Assembly (NCBI GenBank): GCA_012840225.1
Contig: DULU01000052.1
Coordinates: 20,483 to 84,482 of the forward strand
DNA length: 64,000 nucleotides
Origin: Bacillota bacterium
GTDB taxonomy: Bacteria > Bacillota > Limnochordia > DTU080
Direction: 5' to 3'
Below are positions 13,171 through 62,430 of this stretch, piece after piece. Below the pieces are notes generated by a model, which saw only the letters and a program-made list of their open reading frames with translations, was not told where the DNA came from and searched no databases. The position numbers and the translations under genes were made by a program. Each line of letters begins with the position of its first letter. The first letter of the stretch is position 1.

Positions 13171-13205
13171 TTTCTATAAACGGCGGGAGGGAAGAGCACC
13201 GGTTT

Positions 13206-13973: not shown

Positions 13974-13984
13974 GGAGGTGGCCC

Positions 13985-16393
13985 TTGCTGCACCGGCTGA
14001 GCTTCCGTTATCTCTATCTTGTGCTCGCTTTGACCTTACTCGTCGCCCTGCAGCCGCTCGTGGCCAGATGGCAGAGGGAAACAGCAGCCAGGTCGGTGGC
14101 CATGGTGGTAGATTATTATGCCTTTGAGCAGTTGGCGACGATCTACGGTTTGGACCGGGCGGAGCTGTGGCCAGAGCTGCGGGGGGCCGGCGTGTGGGGA
14201 GCGGCGCTGGGTGAGTTGACCTTGAACAAAGCGGCGGCTAGGGGGTATCTGCAGCTTCTCCAGGGCGGGGAGGTGCAACCTGTCCTGCGGGCCGGCGGCT
14301 GTGCCGCTTGCCGGGTAAATGAGGCGGCCGTCTATGTGCTTTGGTGGGAAGGTGGGCCGACGCCGCCTTGGCTCGTGGATTCTCTGCGGCGGCATGTGGC
14401 TGCGGGGGTGAAGGAGATCTTTCCTTTACCTGCCGATGCCGCTGCCGCTGCCGGTGCCGCTGCCGCTGCCGGTGCCGGTGCTGCTACCGCTGCCGCTGCC
14501 GATGTCGGTGAAGAGGGACTGGTGATCAGGGAAGTATCGCCTGTGCCCGTTGGACTTGCGCTGTCTGCCACACCGTTGGCCCCGGCGGCTGATTTGCCGT
14601 CGGCCTCGCCGCTGGCCTCGCCGCCGGCTGCTCTACCGGAGGCGCCTCTCACCACTGCCTTGCTGGCCGGGCTGGGTTTGGGTCTGGCCCCGGAAGATGT
14701 GGCGGCCATCCGGGCGGCCGGACTGGTGGTGGTGCCGCGTTTTGCTCACCATCCGACCATCACGGCGGCACAGGTGGCCTTCCGCCTGAAGCAACTGGAT
14801 GAACTGGACTTGACGGGACCGCTCATCTTTGCCGGAGTGCAGCTCCCAGGTTACCCGGCGACCACCGCCCTCTGGACTGAAGGATTGGCCGGGCGCCCCA
14901 ATCCGGTCGGCTTGATCGAATTTGCCAGGCAGCCCGGCACCGCTGCCGTAGTCGAAGGTCATGACCTGTTGGCGGTCCGGGTTCATTCCATCACTCCCGC
15001 CGAGATGGCGACCATCGATATCGATACAGCCATAGCCCGCTTCTGGCGCGCCGTGCGGGAAAGAAACATCCGCCTGCTCTACATACATCCCATCCCTCCC
15101 GAGCATCCGCTGGTGGCGGCGCGGGCGGCGGCCATAGCAGCGGAAGCGGGGACGGATACGAGGCCGGAAACGAGGGTTGAATCGGAGGGGGAAACGGGAC
15201 CGGACCAGCCTCCGGTGATCATCTCTCCGGCGGCTTATGCGGCGGCGCTGGTGGAGATCAACACCGCCTATATTGCCCGGTTGGCTGCCGAACTCAAGGC
15301 GGCAGGTTTCCGGTTGGGTCCTCCCAGCACCTTCCAGCCATACAGCGTACCGCAGGTGGTTTTGCTCCTTTTGACCATCGGGGTGGGGCTGGCCGGAGCT
15401 GCTTTGGCAAAGTTATTGCGGGCGCCGCGGTGGGTTTATATACCGGTCGTGTTGCTCGCTGTAGCAGCCGCAGGCCTGGCTCCCCTCCTGGGCTACGATA
15501 TCTTCATTAAGCAAACTGTCGCTTTGGCCGCCGCCATCATCTTTCCCAGCCTGGCGGTGTTAAGCGTGGTTCCGGGAGAGGCCCGGAAAGCGGGAACCGG
15601 AGAGAAGAAGGTGGGAGGAAGCGGAGAGACGGATACCGGCGGGAAGGCGGGGAGATCCCTCTCAGGCCACTGGCTCTTTCTTTACTGCCGGGCGGCCCTA
15701 TTTTCGCTGGTCGGCGGTCTCATCGTGGCGGCGGTGCTGGCCGATACCCGTTTCCTCTTGCAGCTCTCCCAATTTTTAGGTGTCAAGCTGGCGCATATCG
15801 CTCCACCGCTCATCGTCCTTGTGGCCTTTTTCCTACATTGCTGTTCCTTCTCCGCGGCGGTGGACCGGAGGCGGCTTTTTCCCGGTATCAAGGACATGAG
15901 AGGCCGGGTGAAGGAGTGGCTTCTGCAGCCCATTCCCCTGTTTTATGCCCTCGGGTTGGGTGCCGTAGTCGTAGGCGGCTTCGTTTACATCCTGCGCACA
16001 GGGAATCAGGCGTTGCCGGTCGGCGGATGGGAGCAAGCTTTGCGGCAATGGCTGGAAGAGGTGCTTCTGGTGAGGCCCCGCACCAAAGAGATCCTCTTCG
16101 GTCACCCGCTTTTGGTAGCGGCTCTGGCGTCGCGTCCGGCAGTGCGGGCGATGGGGGAACGGGCATCTGCCGCCGGCTGGCTTTTAGCCGGTGCGGCAGT
16201 GGGCCAGCTATCCATGGTGAACAGCTTCTCCCATATTCACACGCCGCTTTTGATCAGCTTGTGGCGCACCTTTCTCGGACTGGCCGTAGGGTTGCTGGTG
16301 GGCTATCTGGTGGTGAGACCTATTATTACCTGGCTTTGGAGCCTGAGCTCAGGCGGAGACGGGAAAGTCGGGGATGGAAAACAGCATGTTTAA
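13985..16393 (+). CDS. Large polytopic membrane protein, DUF5693-like (csaB-associated)
   Basis: Multiple TM segments and an Ala/Gly low-complexity tract. Located directly upstream of, and overlapping, csaB, as DUF5693 proteins are in Firmicutes. TTG start with RBS AGGGAGGTG. Confidence 0.55.
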   Translation: MLHRLSFRYLYLVLALTLLVALQPLVARWQRETAARSVAMVVDYYAFEQLATIYGLDRAELWPELRGAGVWGAALGELTLNKAAARGYLQLLQGGEVQPVLRAGGCAACRVNEAAVYVLWWEGGPTPPWLVDSLRRHVAAGVKEIFPLPADAAAAAGAAAAAGAGAATAAAADVGEEGLVIREVSPVPVGLALSATPLAPAADLPSASPLASPPAALPEAPLTTALLAGLGLGLAPEDVAAIRAAGLVVVPRFAHHPTITAAQVAFRLKQLDELDLTGPLIFAGVQLPGYPATTALWTEGLAGRPNPVGLIEFARQPGTAAVVEGHDLLAVRVHSITPAEMATIDIDTAIARFWRAVRERNIRLLYIHPIPPEHPLVAARAAAIAAEAGTDTRPETRVESEGETGPDQPPVIISPAAYAAALVEINTAYIARLAAELKAAGFRLGPPSTFQPYSVPQVVLLLLTIGVGLAGAALAKLLRAPRWVYIPVVLLAVAAAGLAPLLGYDIFIKQTVALAAAIIFPSLAVLSVVPGEARKAGTGEKKVGGSGETDTGGKAGRSLSGHWLFLYCRAALFSLVGGLIVAAVLADTRFLLQLSQFLGVKLAHIAPPLIVLVAFFLHCCSFSAAVDRRRLFPGIKDMRGRVKEWLLQPIPLFYALGLGAVVVGGFVYILRTGNQALPVGGWEQALRQWLEEVLLVRPRTKEILFGHPLLVAALASRPAVRAMGERASAAGWLLAGAAVGQLSMVNSFSHIHTPLLISLWRTFLGLAVGLLVGYLVVRPIITWLWSLSSGGDGKVGDGKQHV

Positions 16394-17555
16394 CCTGGTG
16401 CTCGCCGGCTACTTCGGTTTCGGCAATGCTGGAGATGAAGCTCTGCTTGCCGGGTTGTTATCCGGTATCAATAAAGCGGTGGCAGCCGGTTCCCTGACCG
16501 GCTGCCGTATCCGACCGGTGGTGCTTTCAGCCAAGCCGGAAGAGACACGGAAACTGCATGGGGTGGCGGCCGTCGACCGCCACCATCCGGCTGCCATATG
16601 GCAGTCTCTGGCGAAGGCGGATGCCTTCTGGCTGGCGGGAGGCGGCCTTCTGCAGCAGGCCACCAGCCGGCGCAGCATTTACTACTATTTGGGCCTGTTG
16701 GCCTTGGCCCAAGCCCATGCCTTGCCTACCTGCCTTTTCGCCCAAGGCGTCGGTCCGCTGAAGACTTCCGGCGCCGCCGTTCTTCTGCGCATATTGCTCC
16801 CAAGATGCTGTGGCATTTGGGTGAGAGATGATCTATCCCGGAGGGTGTTGCTGGAGGTATTCGGCGAACGGCACCGGAGGGGGCCGCAGATCCAGGTGAC
16901 CGGCGATCCGGCCTTCCTTCTGCCGCCGGCCATGGAGGGCGGGGAAGAGGAGAGAGAAAAGGCGCCCGGAGAAAGAATAGCTGCCGGAGGGTCGCGCTGG
17001 GTGGTGGCCTGCCGTTCCTGGCGGGAGGAACAAGGGTGGAGCGGGCGCTTGGCTGCCGGCTTGGCTGAGGCGGCCAAAACCGGAGGGGCCGCGCTTCAGC
17101 TCCTCGCCATGCAGCCGGAGCAGGACCTGCCGTTTAACCGGCAGCTGGCGGCGGCGCTGCAGGATAGGGGCGCTCAAGTTCATCTCCTTCCCCCGCCGCC
17201 GGATTTCCGCCGGGTAATAATGCACATTGCCGGGGCGGATTTAGTGATAGCCATGCGCCTTCATGCGCTGATCATGGCGGCCGGAGCCGGGGTGCCGGCC
17301 GTGGCGGTGAGCTATGATCCCAAGGTGGATGCCCTGGCGAAAGATCTGGCTATTCCGCTCGTCTCTATTGGGGCACTTAAAGCCGCAGAGGGAGACCATT
17401 TGCTGAGTGCCGTGATCTGCCGGGCGGAAGCCGAAGAGCGTTCCGGGGGCGGGACGGCGACGGCAAGGAAGGAGATGGCCGCCAGGCTCCAAAAGCAGGT
17501 GGCGGCCGATTTGGTGGAGGCGCTCGCAGTATGCGGAGTGAGAAAGAAAGAATAA
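16374..17555 (+). CDS. csaB: Polysaccharide pyruvyl transferase CsaB
   Basis: N-terminal MFNLVLAGYFGFGNAGDEALLAGLL matches the CsaB/PvcB pyruvyl-transferase family. Confidence 0.8.
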   Translation: MENSMFNLVLAGYFGFGNAGDEALLAGLLSGINKAVAAGSLTGCRIRPVVLSAKPEETRKLHGVAAVDRHHPAAIWQSLAKADAFWLAGGGLLQQATSRRSIYYYLGLLALAQAHALPTCLFAQGVGPLKTSGAAVLLRILLPRCCGIWVRDDLSRRVLLEVFGERHRRGPQIQVTGDPAFLLPPAMEGGEEEREKAPGERIAAGGSRWVVACRSWREEQGWSGRLAAGLAEAAKTGGAALQLLAMQPEQDLPFNRQLAAALQDRGAQVHLLPPPPDFRRVIMHIAGADLVIAMRLHALIMAAGAGVPAVAVSYDPKVDALAKDLAIPLVSIGALKAAEGDHLLSAVICRAEAEERSGGGTATARKEMAARLQKQVAADLVEALAVCGVRKKE

Positions 17556-17617
17556 GCGGCGAAGCTGCCGCTCGGACGCCTCCAGGGGAGGATGTGGCCT
17601 GGGAACGGGATGCACCT

Positions 17618-18445
17618 ATGGGGCGGGAGAGAACTTTTGAGCGGGATGCGGCCCTGGTTCTGGGGGTGGCGGTCCATCGCGTCGATCAGGCAGGAGCAGG
17701 CGACTTTGTTGCGCGCCTCGTGGAACGCAGGCGGGAGGCACTCCGCCGGGATGGCGGGGAAGCGGGCTGCTCTGCCATACAAACGGCTCACATTGTCACC
17801 GCCAATAGCGAACTGGTGATGAAAGCCGCTGCCGACAGAGAGGTCGGGGAGATACTGGCAGCTGCCGATCTGGTTGTGGCCGACGGCATCGGGGTGGTGT
17901 GGGCTGCCGGTTTTCTCGGCACTCCTTTGCCGGGCCGGGTGGCCGGGATAGATCTGGCCTTTGCCCTGATCAGGCTCGCGGCGGCGAGAGGATGGCGGGT
18001 GTTTCTCCTCGGCGGGGAGCCGGGAGTGGCGGCAGAGGCGGCGGCTTTTTTGTGCCGCAGGTTCCCAGACCTCCTCGTATCAGGCACACATCATGGCTAT
18101 TTCTCCCCGGTGGAAGAGGAGCAGGTGCTGCGGCAGATTGCCGATAGCCGCTCCGACCTCTTGCTCGTGGCTATGGGAGCGCCGAGGCAGGAGCGCTGGA
18201 TCGCCGCTCACCGCCGGCAATTGGGGGCGGCGGTGGCTATTGGGGTGGGCGGCAGCTTCGATATCTGGGCCGGACGGAAGCGGCGGGCGCCGTTATGGCT
18301 GCAAAGATGCGGGCTGGAATGGGCTTATCGCCTCGCCCGCGAGCCGGCGAGGATTTGGCGCATGTCCGCTTTGCCCCGCTTTGTTCTTGCCGTGCTGCGG
18401 CAGAAATGGCAAATAGGCGGAGGTGGCCGGGGAAAGGATAAGTGA
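17618..18445 (+). CDS. tagA: WecB/TagA/CpsF family glycosyltransferase (N-acetylmannosaminyltransferase-like)
   Basis: LGVAVHRVDQAGA...IVTANSELV...LVVADGIGVVWAAGFLG...FLLGGEPGVA...LLLVAMGAPRQERWI is the TagA family pattern. Start chosen at an internal ATG. Confidence 0.7.
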   Translation: MGRERTFERDAALVLGVAVHRVDQAGAGDFVARLVERRREALRRDGGEAGCSAIQTAHIVTANSELVMKAAADREVGEILAAADLVVADGIGVVWAAGFLGTPLPGRVAGIDLAFALIRLAAARGWRVFLLGGEPGVAAEAAAFLCRRFPDLLVSGTHHGYFSPVEEEQVLRQIADSRSDLLLVAMGAPRQERWIAAHRRQLGAAVAIGVGGSFDIWAGRKRRAPLWLQRCGLEWAYRLAREPARIWRMSALPRFVLAVLRQKWQIGGGGRGKDK

Positions 18446-34463: not shown

Positions 34464-34982
34464 ATGTGTTTAGGGCGCGGGAGTTTTATTATTTTGTTAC
34501 CGGATACCGTATACGGTATGCGCATATGGAACCATAAAAACTGGAGAAAAAGAGAGATAATGGAAGATATACAGTGTTTGGTAGAACTGGAATATAATAA
34601 ACCGCTTGATATAGCAGGACAGAGCCAAATATGCAAAGAAATAGGCAACCGGGACGACAGCAATGTCACATCCCTGTGGCATATGGCCTTGCTCTTCAGC
34701 AGTCGGGCCCGCGGCCGGGAAAGGAGGTGTTATCCCCCATCTGCCGGACGGAGGCCCTGAAGAGAAGAAGGTCGCCGGACGGAGCAAGCGACTAAGCCGG
34801 GGCGCATCAGGAAAAGGAATGAAAGGCGAGGAAACATGGACACTCCCTTTTATCGGCTGGTGCACCCCCACCTGGCAACAGATGCAGATGAAGCAAAAAA
34901 TGCCGCAGCCCCAAGGCGCAGCTGCGCCTGACGGGGCAAAGACACAGGAAAATGAACACCATCAAGGGGGATAACAAGCCAC

Positions 34983-36254
34983 ATGAAAAAATTGGTATCG
35001 CTTTTGACCGCAGTTTTGGCTCTGGCTCTGATCGGCACCATGCCTGCCGTCGCCGCCGGAGTCCTGAAGACGGACGGCAAACTTGCCGGGGAATACAAAA
35101 TACAGAACGGTAACCTGCCGGCTGCAGCCAACTTGACCACCGAGGTCAATCTGGCGGTGGAGGCTGAGGAGGAAGGCTGGCGGGCCGAGGCGGAGTTGGG
35201 TAACCTCATCGGCGGCGCGACCGCTTTGGGTGAGTATCAGATCGAGTTCCGCGATCCCAGGCTCAACCTCAGCTTCTGGGGTCTGGGCCGGGAATACCAG
35301 GAAGAGGATCTCACCGATCCATTTGAGTTCATAACCTCCGCACACAAATATATGGGCAATTTGAAGGCCCGGGCTATTGCCGGTCCGCTCACGGTGGATT
35401 TTGAGGACGACGGCGAGTTCTTCGTGTTCGGCGAGAAAGAGATCGCCGGGCAGACCCTCGGTATCGCCGCCCACCACAAATTGCCCTTGAGCAACGGCTT
35501 CACCGCTTTAGGCTACGACCGCATCAACCTGGCCGGTGTAGAGCTGACTGCCGGTGTGGGTGTCAACACCAAAGCCACCGCTCCCTCAGATCTGGCCTAT
35601 GCGGTGAAAGCCGAGGTGCCGGTACCTGTGGTGCCGGAACTGAAAGCTATCGCCCAGTTTAAGATCCAGCCGGCCGGCTTCAACGGCGCCGATGAAAAGG
35701 AAATCAAGCTGGAAGGCGTGCATGAGACGGACTTGCTGAAAGTGAACGGTTCATTCGCCAACGCCATGTCCAATACCACCGGAGCATTCAAACAGAATGT
35801 AGTGGAAGCCACAGCAGAGTGGCGTGGGGCCAAAGGCGAGCTGGACTGGGACGAGCAGTTTGAGAGCGATGAATACTTCAAGAACACGGCTCCTGCCGTC
35901 CGGGCGCAGCTCAACCGCACCACCACTCCGGGCGACGTGGTCGCTACCAAAATAGCCGTGACCGGCACCTCGCCCATCATTCCCGGACAGGTCTGGGTGC
36001 TCGGCAGCCTGGTTAATGAACCGGAAGCCAAGCGCACGGAGATCAAGGGCGACGGTTATATCAAGATGAGTGAAAAGATCATCCTGGAACCGGGTGTACG
36101 CTATGAGAAGGCTCCGGTCGAAACCATGGAGCTGATCGGCAAGGCCACCTATCAGATGAATGAAAACGGTAAAGTATGGGCCAAATATGCCCAGAAAAAC
36201 ACCGGAGGCACGAGGAACGACGAGATCAGCGCCGGATACGAAGTGCTGTTTTAA
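34983..36254 (+). CDS. Predicted outer-membrane beta-barrel protein (paralog A; signal peptide, C-terminal Y-x-V-L-F)
   Basis: Sec signal peptide MKKLVSLLTAVLALALIGTMPAVAAG. Beta-rich alternating composition. C-terminus ISAGYEVLF with terminal Phe and hydrophobics at -3/-5/-7. RBS AAGGGGGATAA is shared with the paralogs. Confidence 0.6.
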   Translation: MKKLVSLLTAVLALALIGTMPAVAAGVLKTDGKLAGEYKIQNGNLPAAANLTTEVNLAVEAEEEGWRAEAELGNLIGGATALGEYQIEFRDPRLNLSFWGLGREYQEEDLTDPFEFITSAHKYMGNLKARAIAGPLTVDFEDDGEFFVFGEKEIAGQTLGIAAHHKLPLSNGFTALGYDRINLAGVELTAGVGVNTKATAPSDLAYAVKAEVPVPVVPELKAIAQFKIQPAGFNGADEKEIKLEGVHETDLLKVNGSFANAMSNTTGAFKQNVVEATAEWRGAKGELDWDEQFESDEYFKNTAPAVRAQLNRTTTPGDVVATKIAVTGTSPIIPGQVWVLGSLVNEPEAKRTEIKGDGYIKMSEKIILEPGVRYEKAPVETMELIGKATYQMNENGKVWAKYAQKNTGGTRNDEISAGYEVLF

Positions 36255-36332
36255 TCGGACAGCGGTTTTCAGCCGGCGTTTGCTCCGGACCCAATAATAA
36301 AATAAATATAGAAAATAACAGAAATAGTGGTG

Positions 36333-36374
36333 AGAGCACCTGCACCGGTCGGCGCAGGTGCTCTTTCTTCTTTT
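36333..36374 (+). terminator. Rho-independent terminator
   Basis: AGAGCACCTGC-accggtcggc-GCAGGTGCTCT followed by TTCTTCTTTT. Confidence 0.65.
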
Positions 36375-36893
36375 CAGCTTTCAGCTTCCCTCAGCCGTCA
36401 GTTTCCCTCCGCTTATCTTTAATCTATGTTTTTATTGGTTTTATAGTTAAAAATTGCAATTGGCCGGAAGGAATTGGCGTTATCATGATGAAATATCGTA
36501 TAACTTCTGCAGCCGGATATGGGTACGAGGGGAATAAAAATAAAGTATGTAAGGTAATCCTTACATCCCTTGACGGGAAGCGATAAATTTACCAAAAAAG
36601 GCAGCGAACCAGCAGGAAAACGAGGATATTAGTAAAAACATACAAGGTGCATAGAGGGCGAAGGCTATAAGTCCGGATTAACTGGCGGTAGGGAAAGGAG
36701 GTGCACCCCGAGGTTTACCGCGAGTGCAGTGAATCACCGGACATAGCGGGGGGCTGGATGCCGGTAACGAAAGCGTCTGCTGTTCACTAATGGTAACAAG
36801 GTCACTTTAGTGAAGATATGGCGCTGTGTCCGGCCGGCAGTAAACATACGCATGCTCCTCTTAATAAATGAAAAAACTAAGGGGGTTCTATAA

Positions 36894-38240
36894 ATGAAGA
36901 AGCTAGTATTAGCTCTATGTCTAGTGCTGACATTGAGTGTGGCGGCATATGCCGACACCACAGTTGAGGTGGGTATTACCGGACAGGTCAAGTGGGATGC
37001 CAACGTAGCTCAGAAAGACGATCCCGGCTATGGGAGCCAACCGGTCCTCAAGGTAACAAGCAAGGGAACCGGCTGGACGGCCTCTTTTGATACCTTCTAC
37101 AACCGCTTCAAGCTCCAGGGCAGCGAAGGCCCGTTGAGCGTAGCGGTATGGGGAGGCTTTGGTCCCAGCGGTTTGGGCGTGGCGAGCTATGAGCGTGTAT
37201 CGCCCGTAGTCCGTCCGGACAGCACGTTCAACTGGATCCAGGGCGCTCAGGATTCCAATGCGAGCAACTGGAGATTCCGCACCGTATATAACCATAGCCT
37301 GGCCAAGTTGACCCTGGACTACGATAATCAAAGCGACCAAGCCATCCTGGCGGCTGAGAAGACCATCTCCGGCTTCGCTTCCGGTATTGGTGTCCAGCGT
37401 TCTACCAACCCGACCAAGGACGAGTCCGTCTTCGCCGCTTGGACCAGCGGCAAGATCGCCGGTGCGACGGTGGTCGGCGTAGGTGCCATCCAGGCGGTCA
37501 ACGGCGACACCAAGGATCGTACCAGCGTCGGTGTCAAAGCCACCTATACCATTCAGCCGATCAACGTCACGGCCATGGGTTACTTCATGGTGCGCGGCAA
37601 GAGCTTCGGCAATGTCACCACCGGTTATATCGAAGGTTCCAAGAACATCATCAACAACCTTGGCAACCTCTATGGTTACTTCAAGTATGATAAAAATGCT
37701 ACCACTGATGTCGTCACCACCAACATCTATGGTCGTCTGCGCCTGCGCGGCGATACCGGATCCGCGTTCAACTGGAACCTGGTAGACGGTTACACCAGGG
37801 ATCGCAGCTGGCTCAAGGTGAAGACCTACTCCAGCCAGTTCTACGTCCAGAGAACCCAGGCGGGTGATAAAGTCAGCCTGTTCAGGTTCTATGGCTTAGG
37901 CGTGGTTAAGTTGGATGTGGCCAAAGGTCTGTGGGTCCGTCCCGAGATCTACATCGAGCCCATCGCCAATGCTAACAAGGACAAGAGAACACTCGTCAAT
38001 GGCAATGCTTATCTGCAGCTGACCGACCGGGTCTTTGCCGAGGCGACCGGACAGTATCAGAATAGGAGCCAGGATGACAATCCTTCCAATAACTTCAGCG
38101 TTTCCATCGGCTTCTCCGCCGATCCGGTAACCGTGCATCTGGAGCCCACCAAGCGGGTAACGTTGAAGGTCGAGTCTTCGACCAGCACCGCCAATGTGAC
38201 CACCAATTCGGCTACGCTGAACTACCTCCTGGTCTTCTAA
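36894..38240 (+). CDS. Predicted outer-membrane beta-barrel protein (paralog B)
   Basis: Signal peptide MKKLVLALCLVLTLSVAAYA. ~55% identical to paralog C over its length (shared blocks QRSTNPTKDESV..WTSGKI, GRLRLRGD.GS...W.LVD.YTR, GLWVRPE.YIEP, LVNGNAYL.LTDRV). C-terminus ATLNYLLVF. Confidence 0.65.
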   Translation: MKKLVLALCLVLTLSVAAYADTTVEVGITGQVKWDANVAQKDDPGYGSQPVLKVTSKGTGWTASFDTFYNRFKLQGSEGPLSVAVWGGFGPSGLGVASYERVSPVVRPDSTFNWIQGAQDSNASNWRFRTVYNHSLAKLTLDYDNQSDQAILAAEKTISGFASGIGVQRSTNPTKDESVFAAWTSGKIAGATVVGVGAIQAVNGDTKDRTSVGVKATYTIQPINVTAMGYFMVRGKSFGNVTTGYIEGSKNIINNLGNLYGYFKYDKNATTDVVTTNIYGRLRLRGDTGSAFNWNLVDGYTRDRSWLKVKTYSSQFYVQRTQAGDKVSLFRFYGLGVVKLDVAKGLWVRPEIYIEPIANANKDKRTLVNGNAYLQLTDRVFAEATGQYQNRSQDDNPSNNFSVSIGFSADPVTVHLEPTKRVTLKVESSTSTANVTTNSATLNYLLVF

Positions 38241-38279
38241 TCGTCAAGATTTAGAAACAGAGGATAGAAACTTCAAAAT

Positions 38280-38390
38280 AGAACCGCTGTAGCCTGTGCT
38301 GCAGCGGTTCTATTTGTTTAGCGCTCTTCGACCATAACTACTTATCCTTGTAGCAGCACCGGTGCTCATAGCCGGTGCTTTTCTTTTTTT
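38280..38390 (+). terminator. Two tandem intrinsic terminator hairpins
   Basis: GAACCGCTG...CAGCGGTTC + TATTTGTTT (38281-38320), and GCACCGG-tgctcatag-CCGGTGC + TTTTCTTTTTTT (38355-38390). Confidence 0.6.
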
Positions 38391-38748
38391 AGCCCTTGGC
38401 AGCAGTTGGGATAGTTAATAGTAATATCCAGGCACAGCATGCGCAGAAAAGAAGGAAAACAGGGAAATGCAAAGAAACAATGATATACAAGAATGCATTA
38501 CAGGCGGAAAGCTTGGCTGTACTGGCGGTGGAGAAAGGAGGTGTTCCCCACAAGTTGGCCGCAAGGGCAGTGATCGCCAAGCTGAAGCGGGGAGCACGGT
38601 ATTAAGGAAAATGAAGGTTGGGGCAGCAGTCGGTGTGGTCTGGAAGGAAACTTGGACACTTTCAGCGGCAGCCGGTGCCGCCACAGCCGACCATAAGACA
38701 TTTACCTGCTCCTCCTATAGATGAAGCAACAACTTAGGGGGTTTATTG

Positions 38749-40086
38749 ATGAAGAAGTTAGCATTAGCATTATGCTTGGTGTTGACCTGCAGTTTCCTGG
38801 CGTATGCCGAGACTGAGGTGAAAGTCGGGGTAGCCGGCGAGACCACCTGGACACCGGGCGCCATCGTGAAGACCGACGGACAAGGTTTAGTGCTGAAAGT
38901 GAACAGCAAGGGAGAAGGATGGACGGCAACGTATGACTCCATGACCCAGCGCTATAAGATCCGGGCCGGTGAAGGTCCCTTGCGCGTTGATCTCTGGGGT
39001 GCGGACAATGGGAATAAAATCCCGGAGCGTTTGTCCTATTTGCGGTCGGATTCCAACCTGAACTATATTCAGGGTAGTCAGGATTCCGCCGACAACAACT
39101 GGAAGATGCGCGTGAGCTACGACCATGACCTGGCCGACCTGGTCCTGGATTACGACAATGCCACCAACCAGGCTATCTTGGCGGCGCAGAAGAAAATCGC
39201 CGGCTTTGATTCCGCAGTGGCTATCCAGCGTTCCACCGATCCGACCAAAGATGAATCCATCATCGGCGGTTGGACAAGCGGTAAAATCGGTCCGGTGGGC
39301 GTAGTCGGCGTGGCCGCCGTGAAAGCCAACAACGGCGATACCACCGACGCCATGAGCATCGGTGCCAAAGCGACGTACACCATCAAGCCGCTAGATATCA
39401 ACACCATGGCTTATGTCTCCAAGCGCGGCAAGAATTTCGGCGATGTCACCACCCTTTACGCCGAAGCTTCGAAGAACATCATCAACGGTCTGGGTAATCT
39501 CTATGCTAAGGTGCAAAACGACACCAAAGCTTCCGACGGTACCGTCACCAACACCGTATATGGACGCGTCCGCCTGCGTGGCGACAGCGGCAGCAGCTAT
39601 GACTGGGATCTGGTCGACACCTACACCAGGCAGCTCGACTGGTTGAAGACCAAGACTTATGCCGGTCAGGTTTATGCCCAGAACACCACGACCAACGGGC
39701 AGACCACTCTGCAGCGGCTGTATGGTATTGCCACCGTCAAGATGGATGTCGGCAACGGCCTGTGGGTCAGACCCGAAGTCTATATTGAGCCGGTAAACTC
39801 CATCGACAAGAATACCGGTAAAGCGGTGACCAGAACGCTCGTCAACGGCAATGCTTACCTGAAGCTCACCGACCGGGTCTCCTTGGAGTCCAATGTCTCC
39901 TTTGAAAACAGGAACACCTTCACCAAGGGTCCGAGGACTGCGTATGGCGCCGCCGTCGGTTTCCAGATGGATCCCACGGATGCCCACATCCAGTCCGACA
40001 AGCAGGTTAAGCTGGCCTATAACTCCAGCACCGTGGACGAAGTGACCAACAACACCGCCACTTTGAGCTATATGCTGGTCTTCTGA
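38749..40086 (+). CDS. Predicted outer-membrane beta-barrel protein (paralog C)
   Basis: Signal peptide MKKLALALCLVLTCSFLAYA. C-terminus ATLSYMLVF. RBS TAGGGGGT 6 nt upstream of the ATG. Confidence 0.65.
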   Translation: MKKLALALCLVLTCSFLAYAETEVKVGVAGETTWTPGAIVKTDGQGLVLKVNSKGEGWTATYDSMTQRYKIRAGEGPLRVDLWGADNGNKIPERLSYLRSDSNLNYIQGSQDSADNNWKMRVSYDHDLADLVLDYDNATNQAILAAQKKIAGFDSAVAIQRSTDPTKDESIIGGWTSGKIGPVGVVGVAAVKANNGDTTDAMSIGAKATYTIKPLDINTMAYVSKRGKNFGDVTTLYAEASKNIINGLGNLYAKVQNDTKASDGTVTNTVYGRVRLRGDSGSSYDWDLVDTYTRQLDWLKTKTYAGQVYAQNTTTNGQTTLQRLYGIATVKMDVGNGLWVRPEVYIEPVNSIDKNTGKAVTRTLVNGNAYLKLTDRVSLESNVSFENRNTFTKGPRTAYGAAVGFQMDPTDAHIQSDKQVKLAYNSSTVDEVTNNTATLSYMLVF

Positions 40087-40289: not shown

Positions 40290-40319
40290 TTGACGGGGGA
40301 ATAGGAGTAGTGGTATAGT
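40290..40319 (+). promoter_or_regulatory. Sigma-A-like promoter (TTGACG-N18-TATAGT) upstream of the 40453 gene
   Basis: -35 TTGACG (40290-40295), 18-nt spacer, -10 TATAGT (40314-40319), followed by an AT-rich ~130-nt leader. Confidence 0.45.
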
Positions 40320-40452
40320 AAAACTAACGTACTGATTGTCTTTGGGGAACAGATACAAAGATATTAAAAATAAATATAACCAAATAACTAACCTACATAA
40401 GCGGGGCGAAAGAGTGAGCGGAGCAAACCGGTCAGGCTGTCGGCAGCTTCTC

Positions 40453-42039
40453 ATGCTCATAAAGATCTTTTGGGTAGTGCTTGTTATGTCCGCTGTCGTG
40501 GTGTGGCGGGCGAAAGCGGCAGAGGTGCATGGCACGCTGGCACTGGAGGGCAGCTACAATCGCTTTACCGGGTGGCGATTTGCGGAAAGCGAAGCGAAGG
40601 TGACTTATAAGCCGGCTTGGTGGCGGAATGCCGAGTTGGCCATAACCTTCAAAGACAGCCGGGCAGCTCTGGGCTATAAGTGGCTCCTGGAAGATAAGGT
40701 TTGGCGCATCGCCACCTGGCAGGGGGTCTGTCGGGAGAGCGGTTGGCGGGATCCTTTTTCTTTGGTGTCGCTCAGCGGCGTTCCGGTGGCCCCTTGGCGC
40801 CTGCGCCTGGAGCACAAAACTTGGGGTCTTGGGAGCGATCTGGCCCCCTCGCATCATGCTCTGCACTGGCGGAAGAGTATGGGAAAAATGCGTATCGGCC
40901 TGCTTTTTACAGGTAGCGGTGCTGCGGCGGCGTCCTTACCTGACGACGATGAAGATGATGATGGGGAAAGTGATGAGCAAATCGGCGGCGATGGCGATGA
41001 TGAAGATGCCGATGATAACGGCAGTGTTGCCGCCGGAAGCTTATTCGGCGTAATATATGCCCGCTATGATAACGGCGGTTGGTATGGTGCTTTTTCGCTC
41101 GCCGGGAGCCGGGCGGGCGGGAGAGAAGCCGGGAGCGACGGCCAAACGCGGGGCGCTTATGCTTTTGAGCTCAGGCATAGAAGTGATCGCTTCTATATTT
41201 CCCTGGCGGATAAATATAAAGAAGCCGGCTTCAAAAATCCTGATAAACCCCTCAGCCGGGTAAGCAAATTCCGGGTAGGCTGGAGGATTGGAAATTTCAC
41301 CCTCTTCCTGGAGGAGAGGATAGAGGAGGAAGGTAAGCGGAAAAGATGGCAGGAACTGGCTTTGGGTGTGCGTCCCAAGGCCAGGGCCGGCCCCCTGTCT
41401 ACCTTGATCACGGAGCGCCTGGTGGCCGCCGGGGGACCACTCTCCTGGTTGGTGCGCTGGGAAAGGTTGGTAGCGCCATCTTCCCGGTGGACCATGCAGG
41501 TGGAAGTGCGCGGCCCCTGGCGATCCGGCAGCCAGGGTGATAGCCAAGGCGGCAGCCAGGGTGGCAGCCAAGGTGGTAGCCAAGGTGGTAGCCAAGGCGG
41601 CAGCCAAGGTGGTAGTCAGGGTGGCAGTCTGGGCGGCAGTCTGGGCGGCGGCTGGGGCTGGCGGCTGGTTTTGGCCGAAAACAGGGATACCTGGCTCAAC
41701 TGGTATGTCACCTTGCCGGGCGGGAAGAGGGTGCTCACCAAATATTCGGTAATGGCCTGGAAGACGGCCATTCTCTACCAGTTGGTGCTCCCCGGAGGCC
41801 GGCAAGTGGGAGGTGAGTTGGCCGGCGGCGCCGAATACCGGGACCGTGACCCACCGGCAGTCCCACCTGCTCTTATGATCAGCGGTACCTGGTGGTCATG
41901 GAAGGTGAAGGCCGCCAAAAAACTGAATGACCGGATAACGCTCGCTTGGGAATATGAGCACCTATATGCCGATGATCTGCCGGCCGGGGCGGTCTGGCGC
42001 GAAAGTGGGCAAAAATGGCATTTGCTGTGGCAGTTTTAA
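40453..42039 (+). CDS. Secreted beta-rich protein with (GGSQG)n and acidic tracts, C-terminal beta-signal-like ...LLWQF (putative OM protein)
   Basis: Signal-like MLIKIFWVVLVMSAVVVWRAKAAEV. Poly-acidic DDDEDDDGESDEQIGGDGDDEDADDNG. Ten-plus GGSQG repeats. Terminal Phe with W at -3 and L at -5. The start is uncertain (ORF opens at 40336). Confidence 0.5.
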   Translation: MLIKIFWVVLVMSAVVVWRAKAAEVHGTLALEGSYNRFTGWRFAESEAKVTYKPAWWRNAELAITFKDSRAALGYKWLLEDKVWRIATWQGVCRESGWRDPFSLVSLSGVPVAPWRLRLEHKTWGLGSDLAPSHHALHWRKSMGKMRIGLLFTGSGAAAASLPDDDEDDDGESDEQIGGDGDDEDADDNGSVAAGSLFGVIYARYDNGGWYGAFSLAGSRAGGREAGSDGQTRGAYAFELRHRSDRFYISLADKYKEAGFKNPDKPLSRVSKFRVGWRIGNFTLFLEERIEEEGKRKRWQELALGVRPKARAGPLSTLITERLVAAGGPLSWLVRWERLVAPSSRWTMQVEVRGPWRSGSQGDSQGGSQGGSQGGSQGGSQGGSQGGSQGGSLGGSLGGGWGWRLVLAENRDTWLNWYVTLPGGKRVLTKYSVMAWKTAILYQLVLPGGRQVGGELAGGAEYRDRDPPAVPPALMISGTWWSWKVKAAKKLNDRITLAWEYEHLYADDLPAGAVWRESGQKWHLLWQF

Positions 42040-42304
42040 TCTCCGGACAGCGAATGGATTTTTTCGTCAGAAGCAGGGATTAAACCGATTTTCACCAAAT
42101 CATCCATTAAAGCAGGAAGGCGGCGGGTGATGGCGAAATATCGGTATGTGCCCCGGTGTGTGCGTTGCACCGAGCACCGGGCGGATTGCCGGCCTGCCGT
42201 TTTAGAGACGGAGATCAAGGCAGTAGAGCCCTGAACAGGACTCAGGTTCAGGGGTGCCAAGAATGAGTCTCGGCTGTAAGGCCGAAAGGAGGAGGAGCCA
42301 CGCT

Positions 42305-43414
42305 GTGGCACAAGTAATTCTTCAACATGTTACCAAGAGATTTGGTAACGTCATCGCTGTCAACGACGCTACTCTTGAAGTCAGGGACCGGGAATTTATG
42401 GTTTTGGTAGGTCCGTCAGGTTGCGGTAAGTCTACCACCTTGCGCATGGTAGCCGGGTTGGAGGATGTCACCGAAGGGAATATTTATATCGGTGAGACTC
42501 TGGTAAACAACATCCCGCCCAAAGACCGGGACATTGCCATGGTGTTCCAGAACTATGCTCTATACCCGCATATGGACGTATACAACAACATGGCTTTCGG
42601 TCTGAAGCTGCGCAAGTTCCCCAGAGCGGAAATCGATCGCCGGGTGCGTGAGCATGCCCGCCTGTTGGGCATCGAAAACTTGCTCGACCGCAAGCCGACC
42701 CAGCTCTCCGGCGGCCAGAAGCAGCGCGTGGCCGTAGGTCGGGCTATTGTGCGTGAGCCCAAGGTGTTCTTGATGGACGAGCCTCTGTCCAACCTGGACG
42801 CTTTGCTCCGGGTGCAGATGCGCGCCGAGCTTTCCAAGATTCATGCCCGCTTGCAGACCACTGCTATTTACGTGACCCACGACCAGACAGAAGCCATGAC
42901 CATGGGCGACAGGATCTGCGTGCTGAAAGACGGCGTCATTCAGCAGGTGGGACCGCCGCTGGAGATCTATGATCATCCGGTTAATGTCTTCGTCGCCGGC
43001 TTCATCGGCAACCCGCCCATGAACTTCGTCAACGGCTTCCTGAAGAAGGAAGGCGACAACTACATCTTCGATGCCAACGGCGCCTTCAGGGTGACCATCC
43101 ATCCGGACCGGGCGCGGCAGATCAAGAATATCGGCGCCTATGTCGACAAGGAAGTGATCCTGGGCATCAGGCCTGAGGATATCGACGATGCCAAAATTCA
43201 TCCCGGCGACGAGAGCAATACGGTAATTGCCATGGTCGACGTGGTCGAGCCGATGGGTGCCGAAAGCCTGATCTACCTGTCGAAAGGCGAAGCCCAGCTG
43301 GTGGCCAAAGTCGACCCGCACAGTGATGCCGAGGACGGAGTGGAGCATCCGGTGCGCCTGAACATGAAGAAGGTCCATATCTTCGACAAGGATACCGAGC
43401 AAGTCGTGGTGTGA
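42305..43414 (+). CDS. msmX: Sugar ABC transporter ATP-binding protein (MsmX/UgpC/MalK type)
   Basis: Near-identical core to B. subtilis MsmX (FMVLVGPSGCGKSTTLRMVAGLE...AMVFQNYALYPHM.VY.N.AFGLKLRK...LSGGQKQRVAVGRAIVREP). Solitary ATPase, as msmX often is. GTG start with AGGAGG upstream. Confidence 0.85.
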   Translation: MAQVILQHVTKRFGNVIAVNDATLEVRDREFMVLVGPSGCGKSTTLRMVAGLEDVTEGNIYIGETLVNNIPPKDRDIAMVFQNYALYPHMDVYNNMAFGLKLRKFPRAEIDRRVREHARLLGIENLLDRKPTQLSGGQKQRVAVGRAIVREPKVFLMDEPLSNLDALLRVQMRAELSKIHARLQTTAIYVTHDQTEAMTMGDRICVLKDGVIQQVGPPLEIYDHPVNVFVAGFIGNPPMNFVNGFLKKEGDNYIFDANGAFRVTIHPDRARQIKNIGAYVDKEVILGIRPEDIDDAKIHPGDESNTVIAMVDVVEPMGAESLIYLSKGEAQLVAKVDPHSDAEDGVEHPVRLNMKKVHIFDKDTEQVVV

Positions 43415-56537: not shown

Positions 56538-56810
56538 TCTGCTTCTCCACTCTGGCTGTGAATCCTGCCGGCGTGAAATAAAAATTATAAAGGTCGTATA
56601 TAAAACAGATGCAATATTAATTGGAATATAATTACAGCACGTAATGTAATAATTACATGATGTAACAGGCTGTCGATGATGGCCACTATATAAAAACCTC
56701 CAGTTCAGACCGTATCAGTCCACGGATATGACCATCGTTTCCCTGCTCTCTGTATAAAAGTATGAATCGGTTTGGGCGTACCGATGAGAGGTTAGAGTTA
56801 AACTGGATAA

Positions 56811-57320
56811 CGATTCGGAATAGTGGCATTACGAGGTGGGAAATAACAATAGGCCGGATCTGGCAAAAGGCCAGCTCAGAAAATCCGGGCTTCGGGGTGA
56901 AGGTATTTGTTTTCTCCCCCTCAGAAGTCAGACTAATCCGGATGGTTCGGATGAGTGCCGGACGACAAATACGGCCGGGGATTGGGAATAGTGGCATTAC
57001 GAGGCGGGAAAAAACAATAGGCCGGATCTGGCGAAAGGCCAGCTCAGGAAATCCGGGTTTCGGGGAGAGGGTATTTGTTTTCTCCCCCTCAGAAGTCAGG
57101 CAAATCAGGAAGGTGTGGATGAGTGCCAGGTGGCAAAAATGGCAGACGATTGGGAATAGAGGCATTGCGGGGCGAAAAAAAACAATGGGCCGGATCTGGC
57201 AAAAGGCCAGCTCAGGAAGACCGGGTCTGTGGGTGAGGGTATTTGTTTTCTTCTCTTTGGATGTCAGGCAAATCAGAAAATGGTGCATAAATGATGGGGA
57301 GCGGGAGGCACAAGTGGATA
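56811..57320 (+). repeat. Three tandem copies of a ~169-bp non-coding repeat, each containing the hairpin CTGGCAAAAGGCCAG
   Basis: Units begin at ~56811, ~56981 and ~57149 (GATTGGGAATAGTGGCATTACGAGG...GGCCGGATCTGGCAAAAGGCCAGCTCAG...GGTATTTGTTTTCTCCCCCTCAGAAGTCAG) with ~85-90% identity between copies. ORFs on both strands across it are repeat artefacts. Confidence 0.85.
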
Positions 57321-62346: not shown

Positions 62347-62430
62347 GTTTTCTGCTTATCTGCTTATCTGCTTATCTGCGTACCTGCTTATCTGTGTACC
62401 TGCTCATCAGCGCATCTACTCATCACTCAT
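62347..62430 (+). repeat. Degenerate tandem octamer array (CTGCTTAT-like, ~10 units) between convergent groEL and the minus-strand OM-like gene
   Basis: ctgcttatctgcttatctgcttatctgcgtacctgcttatctgtgtacctgctcatcagcgcatctactcatcactcatctacttat. Confidence 0.6.

What the first reader, a model, noticed from the sequence alone, without database searches (positions are those of the whole stretch)
34983..40086. Tandem cluster of three paralogous predicted outer-membrane beta-barrel proteins in a Firmicutes-syntenic chromosome
Three consecutive genes (34983-36254, 36894-38240, 38749-40086) share several features. All have near-identical RBS (AAGGGGG) and classical Sec signal peptides (MKKL[VA]L[AL]LCLVLT...A[YA]A). 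They are beta-rich with alternating polar/hydrophobic composition. They end in a canonical BAM-type beta-signal: terminal Phe and hydrophobic/aromatic residues at -3, -5 and -7 (..TLNYLLVF, ..TLSYMLVF, ..SAGYEVLF). Paralogs B and C are ~55% identical, and paralog A is more divergent. The surrounding gene order (comF-csrA-hpf-secA-prfB, ctpB-minJ, uvrBA, yvlBD, ndoAI-ndoA, tsaEB-rimI-tsaD, CIRCE-groESL) is characteristically Bacillus/Clostridia-like, including MinJ, which is largely Firmicutes-restricted. Genuine OMPs here would therefore imply a diderm Firmicute lineage (e.g. Limnochordia-like; high GC fits). The proteins lack the N-terminal SLH domain of the known diderm-Firmicute porin OmpM, so they may be a distinct, undescribed porin family.
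Basis: partly seen in the sequence, partly recalled or inferred. Interest (0 to 1): 0.75.

Follow-up and report, generated by a model that had tools for sequence, protein, structure and literature searches.

The report
New outer-membrane barrel family, diderm Firmicute
Three neighbouring genes encode an undescribed family of large outer-membrane beta-barrel (porin-like) proteins, found only in Limnochordia-type Firmicutes, a two-membrane lineage most of whose genomes had no OmpM (the known diderm-Firmicute porin and tether) detected in a published survey.

Summary
Three tandem genes (A 34983-36254, B 36894-38240, C 38749-40086) encode 423-448 aa proteins with Sec signal peptides and a C-terminal ...h-x-h-x-F beta-signal. 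B and C are 51% identical. A joins them only through profiles.

None matches any Pfam or NCBIfam model. A full HMMER scan of 1.84 billion representatives finds 92 relatives, and 77 of the 95 family sequences then in hand end in Phe.

The genes sit at a conserved locus (uvrC-DUF2089-DUF4097-HAD ... MalK/GATase-tsaEB-rimI-tsaD-groESL) in eight other loci. Two are MAGs UBA5420 and UBA5493, published as Limnochordia with no OmpM, OmpA, Pal or Lpp detected. Relatives encode TolC-like and TamB-like proteins within 10 kb of a family member.

Best reading: BAM-assembled, probably abundant channel proteins of OmpM-less diderm Firmicutes. BamA/LPS genes could not be checked in the source genome, and channel function is inferred.

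Each gene also carries a conserved 5' hairpin displaying GAAAGGAGGUG, which resembles the STAB-SD mRNA stabiliser.

The parts
34983..36254 (+). Paralog A: 423-aa precursor of a predicted outer-membrane beta-barrel (divergent 'A-type' subfamily; ends SAGYEVLF).
   Evidence: ORF. No Pfam or NCBIfam hit. 287 bits against the leave-out family profile. 44% identical to the orthologous first gene of locus L010.
36894..38240 (+). Paralog B: 448-aa precursor of a predicted outer-membrane beta-barrel (ends TLNYLLVF).
   Evidence: ORF. 51% identical to C. 101 bits against the leave-out family profile.
38749..40086 (+). Paralog C: 445-aa precursor; the protein that was modelled (about 24-strand barrel; ends TLSYMLVF).
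40336..42039 (+). ORF D: a possible fourth, very divergent secreted beta-rich protein. It ends HLLWQF, is Trp/Arg/Gly-rich, and carries an acidic insert and GSQG repeats. The start codon is uncertain. Membership of the family is not shown.
   Evidence: ORF. hhalign gives only 60% probability over the N-terminal 100 residues. No hit with family HMMs. 12-nt tandem repeat at 41526-41649. Length is 520 aa versus 565 aa in two assemblies.
34700..34752 (+). 5' leader element of A: a hairpin region containing the invariant GAAAGGAGGTG (34719-34729).
36681..36725 (+). 5' leader hairpin of B displaying GAAAGGAGGTG (36693-36703). A TATAAG -10-like box lies about 12 nt upstream.
38522..38565 (+). 5' leader hairpin of C displaying GAAAGGAGGTG (38533-38543).
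36333..36374 (+). Intrinsic-terminator-like hairpin plus T-run after A. It implies that A is transcribed on its own.
   Evidence: Read directly from the sequence (AGAGCACCTGC...GCAGGTGCTCT TTCTTCTTTT).
38355..38389 (+). Intrinsic-terminator-like hairpin plus T-run after B.
40290..40319 (+). Sigma-70-like promoter (TTGACG-18-TG-TATAGT) in front of ORF D. D lacks the SD-like leader.
42254..43414 (+). MalK/MsmX-type ABC ATPase. It is the conserved neighbour of the barrel genes in most of the syntenic loci (context, not shown to be functionally linked).
16374..17555 (+). CsaB polysaccharide pyruvyl transferase (with TagA/WecG 17531-18445 and DUF5693 13985-16393). This is the machinery that makes the ligand of SLH domains (context for the tether question).
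   Evidence: CsaB lies on the same contigs as the family genes in UBA5420 and UBA5493.

Best explanation
A, B and C are paralogous members of an undescribed family of large (about 24-strand), plug-less, SLH-less outer-membrane beta-barrel proteins. The family appears specific to Limnochordia-type diderm Firmicutes.

Proposed mechanism:
- Each gene is transcribed alone from its own promoter, with a long 5' leader (inferred).
- The precursor is exported by Sec and cut after the A-x-A site (inferred from sequence).
- The C-terminal h-x-h-[GS]-[VYFI]-x-[VIL]-x-F signal is recognised by the BAM machinery, which inserts the barrel into the outer membrane (inferred from the motif and the predicted fold).
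- There the proteins act as water-filled channels, that is, as the main nutrient-diffusion pores of an organism whose relatives lack OmpM (inferred).
- The paralogs differ mostly in their longer loops, which would give different selectivity or surface properties.
- The conserved 5' hairpin exposing a perfect Shine-Dalgarno-like GAAAGGAGGUG would stabilise the mRNAs in the manner of STAB-SD. This fits very abundant envelope proteins (inferred).
For: Sequence features:
- Signal peptides and terminal Phe.
- Family-wide beta-signal: 77 of the 95 family sequences then in hand end in F, with V/I/L at -3, V/Y/F/I at -5, G/S at -6 and A/L/F/V at -7.
- Strands alternate hydrophobic and polar faces.

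Predicted structure:
- AF2 with 56 homologues gives pLDDT 86.5 and pTM 0.79; the five models score 83.8-86.5; 24 long antiparallel strands start straight after the signal peptide.
- Foldseek finds 159 PDB matches at E<=1e-3, and all 50 listed are OM barrels.

Weak sequence signals point the same way:
- Pfam OMP_b-brl (5 members) and Porin_4 (4 members, best 1.3e-6).
- PDB Porin 1 at E 7e-5.

Host lineage:
- The locus is syntenic in L005, L009, L010, L012-L015 and L019; L018 shares only the downstream GATase-tsaEB-rimI-tsaD part.
- UBA5420 and UBA5493 are listed as Limnochordia, with SLH and CsaB but without OmpM, OmpA, Pal or Lpp.
- The OM marker cluster is reported in all 46 UBA Limnochordia, and cultured Limnochordia are diderm by TEM.
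- TolC-like OEP genes (71.7, 54.8 and 46.5 bits against a gathering score of 22) with HlyD and MacB lie directly upstream of a family member in L018.
- TamB (27.9 bits against 22.4) lies within 10 kb of a member in L007.

Native genes: GC3 equals that of the rest of the window.

Leader: GAAAGGAGGTG occurs 3 times in the window, all upstream of A, B and C, against 0.01 expected. It recurs upstream of family genes in nine other distinct loci, inside a hairpin whose stem sequence differs between loci.
Against: - BamA, LptD, LpxA-D and Skp were not found, because only about 81 kb of the source genome could be read (window). The diderm state of this particular organism is therefore inferred from relatives and literature.
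- Assignment of the source MAG to Limnochordia rests on synteny and shared possession of a rare family. GroEL is only 68-72% identical to the listed relatives, and NCBI calls it just 'Firmicutes bacterium'.
- TM-scores to individual PDB barrels are low (0.2-0.49).
- A 24-strand plug-less barrel would be unusually wide for a general porin.
- No expression or proteomic data were examined.
Confidence: 0.7

Rival explanations
1. The proteins are substrate-specific oligosaccharide channels ('glycoporins') that feed ABC sugar importers energised by the adjacent MalK/MsmX-type ATPase. This would be analogous to malK-lamB in E. coli, rather than to general porins.
For: - A MalK-type ATPase is the immediate neighbour of the barrel genes in most of the syntenic loci. 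In L009 the barrel genes are flanked by two copies.
- A Cof-type HAD sugar phosphatase, PGI/SIS and a ROK kinase are also nearby.
- Cultured Limnochordia are polysaccharide degraders.
- A wide barrel would suit oligosaccharides.
Against: - Each barrel gene has its own leader and terminator, so there is no operon with malK.
- No solute-binding protein or permease genes are adjacent.
- Adjacency may simply reflect frozen synteny.
Confidence: 0.15
2. The proteins are the barrel half of a split OmpM-like tether. Like Omp-beta of Thermotogae, the SLH-less barrel would pair with a separate SLH or coiled-coil protein that binds pyruvylated cell-wall polymer. It would then serve both as pore and as outer-membrane anchor in Limnochordia that lack a fused OmpM.
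For: - Most UBA Limnochordia have SLH proteins and CsaB but no OmpM, OmpA, Pal or Lpp.
- CsaB, TagA and DUF5693 lie about 18 kb upstream in the window and on the same contigs in UBA5420 and UBA5493.
- A split Omp-alpha/Omp-beta system is documented in Thermotogae and neighbouring phyla.
Against: - No SLH or coiled-coil gene was found in the roughly 81 kb read around the cluster.
- The mature protein has no periplasmic extension that could dock a partner.
- No comparison with Omp-beta sequences was possible.
- The absence of OmpM in draft MAGs may be partly a matter of incompleteness or of detection.
Confidence: 0.1
3. The proteins are not membrane proteins. They would be secreted beta-rich wall or S-layer-associated proteins of a monoderm Firmicute, and the barrel would be an AlphaFold artefact of amphipathic beta sequences.
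For: - NCBI taxonomy says only 'Firmicutes'.
- No BamA was seen in the DNA available.
- Several deep Firmicutes stain Gram-negative without having an outer membrane.
Against: - Five concordant models at pLDDT 84-86 built from a 56-sequence alignment.
- Only membrane-barrel structural neighbours among those listed.
- A strictly conserved terminal Phe beta-signal.
- No SLH, CWB or other wall-binding domains.
- TolC-like and TamB-like genes next to family members.
- Syntenic relatives classified in a lineage reported as diderm.
Confidence: 0.04
4. The proteins are translocation pores for a macromolecule, either usher-like (pili), a polysaccharide exporter, or an MtrB-like sheath for an electron conduit, rather than solute channels.
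Against: - At 425 aa there is room only for the barrel. There is no plug, N-terminal or C-terminal domain, and no Usher, Plug or POTRA Pfam hits.
- No chaperone, pilin, glycosyltransferase-export or multihaem cytochrome genes are adjacent in any of the loci read.
- Tandem paralogs with stabilised mRNAs fit abundant porins better.
Confidence: 0.04

Closest known systems
OmpM / Mep45 / SlpA (SLH-porin tethers of diderm Terrabacteria; V. parvula OmpM1, PDB 8bym)
   Same: - Outer-membrane beta-barrel of a diderm Firmicute or Terrabacterium.
- Occurs as several paralogs.
- Expected to be a major channel.
   Different: - No SLH domain and no coiled-coil stalk.
- About 24 predicted strands, against 16 in OmpM1.
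- No detectable sequence similarity.
- It occurs in genomes where no OmpM was detected.
Classical Gram-negative porins (Pfam Porin_4 / Porin_1; OmpF, Omp-Pst1 5nxn)
   Same: - Sec signal, terminal-Phe beta-signal and an amphipathic antiparallel barrel.
- A long loop after strand 5 (residues 86-116), where L3 would be.
- Faint profile similarity: Porin_4 in 4 of 56 members; Porin 1 at E 7e-5.
   Different: - A, B and C themselves match no porin model.
- About 24 strands rather than 16.
- The oligomeric state is unknown.
FimD/PapC usher translocation barrel (24 strands)
   Different: Ushers are about 800 aa, with a plug and N- and C-terminal domains, and they sit in chaperone-usher operons. None of that is present here.
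Omp-beta of Thermotogae (barrel half of a split OmpM-like system)
   Same: An SLH-less barrel in a diderm Terrabacterium that also has CsaB and separate SLH proteins.
   Different: No sequence or structure comparison could be made. No Omp-alpha-like partner gene lies next to the cluster.
STAB-SD 5' mRNA stabiliser of B. thuringiensis cry3A (for the leader element)
   Same: A perfect Shine-Dalgarno-like sequence (GAAAGGAGG...) lies in the 5' UTR, far upstream of the real start codon of a very highly expressed gene.
   Different: - Here it is displayed inside a hairpin whose stem sequence differs between loci, and it lies 160-270 nt upstream of the start codon.
- Its function is untested.
- The lineage is different.

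Membership tests
BAM-assembled outer-membrane beta-barrel proteins (general class) | Cleavable Sec signal peptide | tested here: met
   MKK + hydrophobic core + A-x-A in A, B and C, and in nearly all full-length family members. Judged by eye; no predictor was run.
BAM-assembled outer-membrane beta-barrel proteins (general class) | C-terminal beta-signal: terminal aromatic residue (Phe) with hydrophobic residues at -3, -5, -7 | tested here: met
   77 of the 95 family sequences in hand end in F. Residues: -3 V/I/L; -5 V/Y/F/I; -6 G/S; -7 A/L/F/V.
BAM-assembled outer-membrane beta-barrel proteins (general class) | Antiparallel barrel with an even number of strands | tested here: met
BAM-assembled outer-membrane beta-barrel proteins (general class) | Host possesses an outer membrane and BamA | not testable with these tools
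   Only about 81 kb of the source genome was readable, and no BamA lies there. Indirect evidence: syntenic relatives UBA5420 and UBA5493 are classed as Limnochordia; the OM cluster is reported in all 46 UBA Limnochordia; TolC-like and TamB-like genes lie next to family members.
OmpM (SLH-porin tether) | N-terminal SLH domain | tested here: not met
   No SLH hit at E<=1 in A, B or C, and SLH is not among the 25 most frequent families listed for the 56 members.
OmpM (SLH-porin tether) | Coiled-coil stalk between SLH domain and barrel | tested here: not met
   Strand 1 starts at residue 21, directly after the signal peptide.
OmpM (SLH-porin tether) | 16-stranded porin barrel (V. parvula OmpM1) | tested here: not met
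Classical porins (Pfam Porin_1 / Porin_4) | Match to the family model at or above the gathering score | tested here: not met
   No hits for A, B or C. 4 of 56 relatives match Porin_4 (best E 1.3e-6; their scores against the gathering cut-off were not shown). The one Porin_4 score shown, for the 'family 2' neighbour in L005, is 25.7 bits against 27.
Classical porins (Pfam Porin_1 / Porin_4) | Trimeric assembly with an L3 constriction loop | not testable with these tools
   A 31-residue low-confidence loop follows strand 5. No multimer prediction or coordinates were available.
Chaperone-usher ushers (FimD/PapC) | Plug domain plus N- and C-terminal periplasmic domains; chaperone and pilin genes adjacent | tested here: not met
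   The mature protein is 425 aa and is all barrel. No Usher or PapC Pfam hits. No such neighbours.
TonB-dependent transporters | N-terminal plug domain and TonB box inside a 22-strand barrel | tested here: not met
   No Plug or TonB_dep_Rec hits. There are no residues available for a plug.
Thermotogae Omp-beta (split OmpM-like system) | SLH-less barrel working with a separate SLH/coiled-coil Omp-alpha; homology to Omp-beta | not tested
CsaB is present in the window. No SLH gene lies in the DNA read.
STAB-SD type 5' mRNA stabiliser (leader element) | SD-like sequence complementary to the 16S 3' end in the 5' UTR that does not start translation | tested here: met
   GAAAGGAGGTG lies 160-270 nt upstream of the start codons. 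In B and C no upstream ORF shared between them follows the motif (read from the sequences).
STAB-SD type 5' mRNA stabiliser (leader element) | Binding of 30S subunits protects the mRNA from 5'-3' decay (RNase J) | not testable with these tools
   This needs half-life and 5'-end mapping experiments.

The most novel reading that the evidence does not exclude
This family (with the second, distantly related barrel family found beside it in relatives) is the missing major outer-membrane protein set of the OmpM-less majority of Limnochordia.

In that case, pore function and peptidoglycan tethering, which are fused in OmpM of Negativicutes, would be uncoupled here. The outer membrane would be held either by a split, Omp-alpha/Omp-beta-like partnership between these barrels and separate SLH proteins bound to CsaB-pyruvylated polymer, or by an entirely unknown tether.

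That would represent a natural intermediate state on the proposed path to outer-membrane loss in Firmicutes.
Probability: 0.2. Interest if true: 0.8.

Novelty: new variant of a known kind. Interest (0 to 1): 0.6.

Why it matters
Diderm Firmicutes are the model for how Gram-positive bacteria lost the outer membrane. [quoted passage not shown]

Published supplementary data show that nearly all uncultured Limnochordia listed lack OmpM, OmpA, Pal and Lpp. The main text of that preprint does not discuss these Limnochordia entries.

A lineage-wide, syntenic, multi-copy family of large SLH-less barrels provides concrete candidates for the porins of these organisms. It also makes it possible to test experimentally how their outer membrane is tethered.

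The family additionally adds a compact (425 aa) barrel of about 24 strands to the known outer-membrane protein repertoire, and a conserved leader RNA that may be a stabiliser of abundant envelope-protein mRNAs.

Tried and rejected
Searches that were limited or led nowhere:
- The word-indexed protein searches found almost nothing (4, 2 and 7 hits). Only the exhaustive HMMER scan revealed the family.
A 17-sequence subfamily gave 4 genomes.

Taxonomy of the source MAG:
- 90% clusters of GroEL, SecA and UvrA name only 'Firmicutes/Bacillota bacterium'.
- The Campanaro 2020 supplement gives only 'Firmicutes sp.' for the related MAG AS08sgBPME_312 (locus L012); the source MAG's own identifier was not known.
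- Taib et al. 2020 is not held.

Looking for BamA or other OM machinery:
- I read about 7 kb upstream and about 7 kb downstream of the window and found none. Two look-ups failed on start-codon mismatch.
- The single metagenome scan fetched DNA upstream of the TamB-like gene and showed a histidine kinase, not BamA.

Leader RNA:
- Rfam has no match at gathering score or at E<=1.
- RNAalifold gave no consensus because the stems are out of register in the alignment. Single-sequence folds were used instead.

ORF D: it is not a demonstrable family member, despite a weak N-terminal hhalign match.

Explanations considered and dropped:
- Recent horizontal acquisition, because GC3 matches the genome.
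- Lipoprotein, because there is no proper lipobox.
- An MtrB-like cytochrome sheath, an usher, or a TonB-dependent transporter, because the partner genes and domains are absent.

Full report
**1. The observation**

ORF listing confirms three same-strand genes at the stated coordinates: A 34983-36254 (423 aa), B 36894-38240 (448 aa) and C 38749-40086 (445 aa).

- Each starts with MKK, a hydrophobic core and an A-x-A cleavage site. Each ends in Phe with alternating hydrophobic residues.
- B and C are 51% identical over their full length (E 3e-156).
- A and C are not significantly similar by BLAST (E 0.41), but they are linked. A matches metagenomic protein P0004 at E 5e-38, and C matches the same protein at a database-wide E of 2.6e-8.
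- A profile built from 51 relatives that excludes all window sequences scores A 287 bits, C 133 bits and B 101 bits, full length.
- GC3 of A, B and C (0.71-0.72) equals that of neighbouring housekeeping genes. They are therefore native genes; the lower overall GC comes from amino-acid composition and AT-rich spacers.

**2. A new, small family**

- A, B and C match nothing in Pfam or NCBIfam, even at E<=1.
- Word-indexed searches of 5.8 billion proteins return only 4 and 2 hits.
- An exhaustive HMMER scan of 1.84 billion cluster representatives, using a 6-sequence profile, finds 92 proteins at E<=1e-3 and 33 at E<=1e-30.
- Full-length members are 410-550 aa and begin with very similar signal peptides. 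Of the 95 family sequences then in hand, 77 end in Phe; most of the rest look like fragments.
- The C-terminal consensus is h(-9)-x-h(-7)-[GS]-[VYFI]-x-[VIL]-x-F. By established knowledge this is the signature of BAM substrates.
- In a 56-sequence alignment only R121 and F445 (C numbering) are invariant. W58, W83, G156 and Y405 are nearly invariant.
- Scanning all 56 members against Pfam gives only weak hits. The families matched by more than one member are OM-barrel models: OMP_b-brl in 5, Porin_4 in 4 (best 1.3e-6), DUF5777 and Phage_OMP.
- The family profile weakly matches Providencia Porin 1 in the PDB (E 7e-5).

**3. Predicted structure**

- With only 6 sequences, AlphaFold2 gave a mediocre model (pLDDT 67.7).
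- With the 56-sequence alignment the model of C reaches pLDDT 86.5 and pTM 0.79, and the five models score 83.8-86.5.
- DSSP shows 24 long antiparallel strands that start at residue 21, immediately after the signal peptide.
- Connections between strands are short, apart from two long ones at residues 86-116 and 278-303.
- There is no room for a periplasmic domain, a stalk or a plug.
- In most strands one face is hydrophobic and the other polar.
- Foldseek against the PDB finds 159 matches at E<=1e-3, and all 50 listed are outer-membrane barrels: MOMP, OccK/OpdK, LptD, FimD/PapC and TonB-dependent receptors. TM-scores are only 0.2-0.49, so no known barrel is a close template.
- I could not inspect coordinates. 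Closure, pore size and loop topology are therefore inferred. The strand count should be read as 'about 24'.

**4. Who carries it**

- The window is a biogas-fermenter MAG that NCBI labels only 'Firmicutes bacterium'.
- Contexts of family members on long contigs are strikingly conserved. The order is uvrC - DUF2089 - DUF4097 - HAD, then a MalK-type ATPase on one side or the other of 2-4 barrel genes, then (mazEF) - GATase - tsaE - tsaB - rimI - tsaD - groESL. This holds in L005, L009, L010, L012, L013, L014, L015 and L019; L018 shares the GATase-tsaEB-rimI-tsaD part.
- L013 and L015 come from MAGs UBA5420 and UBA5493. The supplementary table of Witwinowski et al. (bioRxiv 10.1101/2021.05.31.446380) lists both as Firmicutes; Limnochordia. 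It records SLH proteins and CsaB for them but 'NA' for OmpM/OmpM-like, OmpA, Pal and Lpp.
- Nearly all the UBA Limnochordia listed there show the same pattern. Among the entries read, only L. pilosa and UBA5435 have OmpM.
- Their CsaB genes lie on the same contigs as the barrel genes. This mirrors the window, where CsaB, TagA and DUF5693 lie about 18 kb upstream.
- According to PMC11456536, Taib et al. 2020 found the outer-membrane marker cluster in all 46 UBA Limnochordia, and cultured Limnochordia are diderm by TEM.

Independent hints of an outer membrane:
- In L018 the family gene lies directly downstream of TolC-like OEP genes (71.7, 54.8 and 46.5 bits against a gathering score of 22), together with a HlyD adaptor and a MacB ABC transporter.
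- In L007 a TamB protein (27.9 bits against 22.4) lies within 10 kb of a family member.
- The window itself encodes a lipoprotein that matches CsgG (32.4 bits against 20.8).

What I could not do is find BamA, Lpt or Lpx genes in the source genome. Only about 81 kb of it was accessible, and none lies there.

**5. Gene organisation and leader RNA**

- A and B are each followed by a terminator-like hairpin (sequence).
- Each of A, B and C is preceded by a spacer of 500-640 nt.
- The three spacers share a block centred on GAAAGGAGGTG. This is a perfect complement of the 16S rRNA 3' end.
- The 11-mer occurs exactly three times in the window, each time 215-265 nt upstream of the start codon of A, B or C. 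The chance expectation is 0.01.
- The same motif lies 160-270 nt upstream of family genes (and of several adjacent 'family 2' genes) in L005, L007, L009, L010, L012-L015 and L019.
- In single-sequence folds of the 14 sites folded it sits in the loop of a hairpin in nearly all of them (paralog A's minimum-energy fold differs), and the 4-10-bp outer stem differs in sequence between loci (GGCGGU/ACCGC, GGUAUUCUGG/CCAGGUACC, GUUACUGG/CCAGUGAC, CGAC/GUCG, and others).
- A -10-like box lies 10-20 nt upstream of the hairpin.
- Rfam has no match.
- The closest known device is STAB-SD of B. thuringiensis cry3A. That is an SD-like sequence in the 5' UTR that binds 30S subunits and blocks RNase J1 (PMC4113751).
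- I infer an mRNA-stabilising leader, which fits very abundant envelope proteins. This is untested.

**6. Most likely function, and rivals**

- *Shown.* The proteins form a rare family of secreted proteins with a BAM-type C-terminal signal and a confidently predicted architecture of about 24 antiparallel strands. They are encoded in multiple tandem copies at a conserved locus in a lineage published as diderm.
- *Inferred.* They are inserted into the outer membrane by BAM and form channels. This is probably the main diffusion route in organisms that lack OmpM.
- *Paralog differences.* B and C differ most in the long connections. A strain variant of B (P0003) carries C-like residues in the 278-303 segment. 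This suggests loop-level diversification or gene conversion.
- *Rivals.* These are sugar-specific channels linked to the adjacent MalK ATPase; the barrel half of a split, Omp-alpha/Omp-beta-like tether; macromolecule translocation pores; and non-membrane secreted proteins. The last two are poorly supported, as set out in the rival entries.

**7. Comparison with known families, and novelty**

- The family is not OmpM. It has no SLH domain and no stalk, and its strand number differs.
- It is not a member of the Pfam porin families.
- It is not an usher or a TonB-dependent transporter, because it has no plug or accessory domains.
- It most resembles, in fold class only, large plug-less OM barrels.
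- That Limnochordia are diderm is already known, so the presence of OMPs is expected.
- What is new is the family itself, its unusual size-to-strand ratio, its occurrence in tandem copies (up to three in this window), and its presence precisely in the genomes where the canonical diderm-Firmicute porin and tether is missing.
- I rate it a new variant of a known kind, with interest 0.6.

Noticed in passing
window 34700-34752, 36681-36725, 38522-38565; also L005 8139 and 9839, L007 7953, L009 2020 and 3729, L010 9750 and 11595, L012 9839, L013 9838, L014 9831, L015 9836, L019 7857 and 9822: A conserved 5' leader hairpin exposes the invariant GAAAGGAGGUG (a perfect Shine-Dalgarno-like sequence) 160-270 nt upstream of the barrel genes examined. 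The stem sequence differs between loci. There is no Rfam match. It resembles the STAB-SD mRNA stabiliser.
   Followed up: partly
window 40336-42039 (+): ORF D follows C and also ends in ...LLWQF. It is Trp/Arg/Gly-rich, with an acidic insert and a 12-nt (GSQG) tandem repeat at 41526-41649. Its length differs between assemblies (520 aa versus 565 aa). It has its own sigma-70-like promoter and lacks the SD-like leader. Similarity to the family is only weak and N-terminal.
   Followed up: partly
L005 8319-9623, L009 2029-3513, L013 8223-9611, L015 8249-9613, L019 8107-9315, L007 8291-9466, L018 3-1118: A second, distantly related predicted barrel family (390-435 aa; ends G[LM]KV[EDQS]F; weak Porin_4 similarity) sits immediately upstream of the family-1 gene in most relatives. 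It is absent from this window.
   Followed up: partly
P0003 versus window 36894-38240 and 38749-40086 (protein residues about 285-305): A strain variant of B from another metagenome is nearly identical to B, except for a short segment (GSGYDWDLADGYTRDRDW) that resembles C. This suggests gene conversion between the paralogs in a loop region.
   Followed up: no
window 57479-58288 (-): A lipoprotein (LSGC lipobox) matches Pfam CsgG above the gathering score (32.4 bits against 20.8). In Gram-negatives CsgG is an outer-membrane lipoprotein channel, so this may be another outer-membrane marker in the window.
   Followed up: partly
window 62427-63761 (-): A 444-aa beta-rich protein with a hydrophobic N-terminus has no family match in Pfam or NCBIfam. 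It could be another envelope protein.
   Followed up: no
window 13152-18445 (+): A cluster of LmeA-like lipid-binding protein, DUF5693, CsaB pyruvyl transferase and TagA/WecG. This is the machinery for the pyruvylated wall polymer that SLH domains bind. It lies on the same contig as the barrel genes in UBA5420 and UBA5493 too.
   Followed up: partly
window 6797-7101 (+): raiA RNA (Rfam RF03072, 143 bits, E 2e-35) lies upstream of the hpf gene.
   Followed up: no
window 56810-57276: A 168-nt tandem repeat (2.8 copies, 85% identical) lies in a low-GC stretch between a 473-aa HTH-like ORF and the CsgG-like gene. It has no Rfam match and its nature is unknown.
   Followed up: no
L018 4103-6461: The TolC-like OEP upstream of the family member is split into three consecutive ORFs (295, 279 and 142 aa). 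These may be two genes plus a frameshift, or an assembly error.
   Followed up: no
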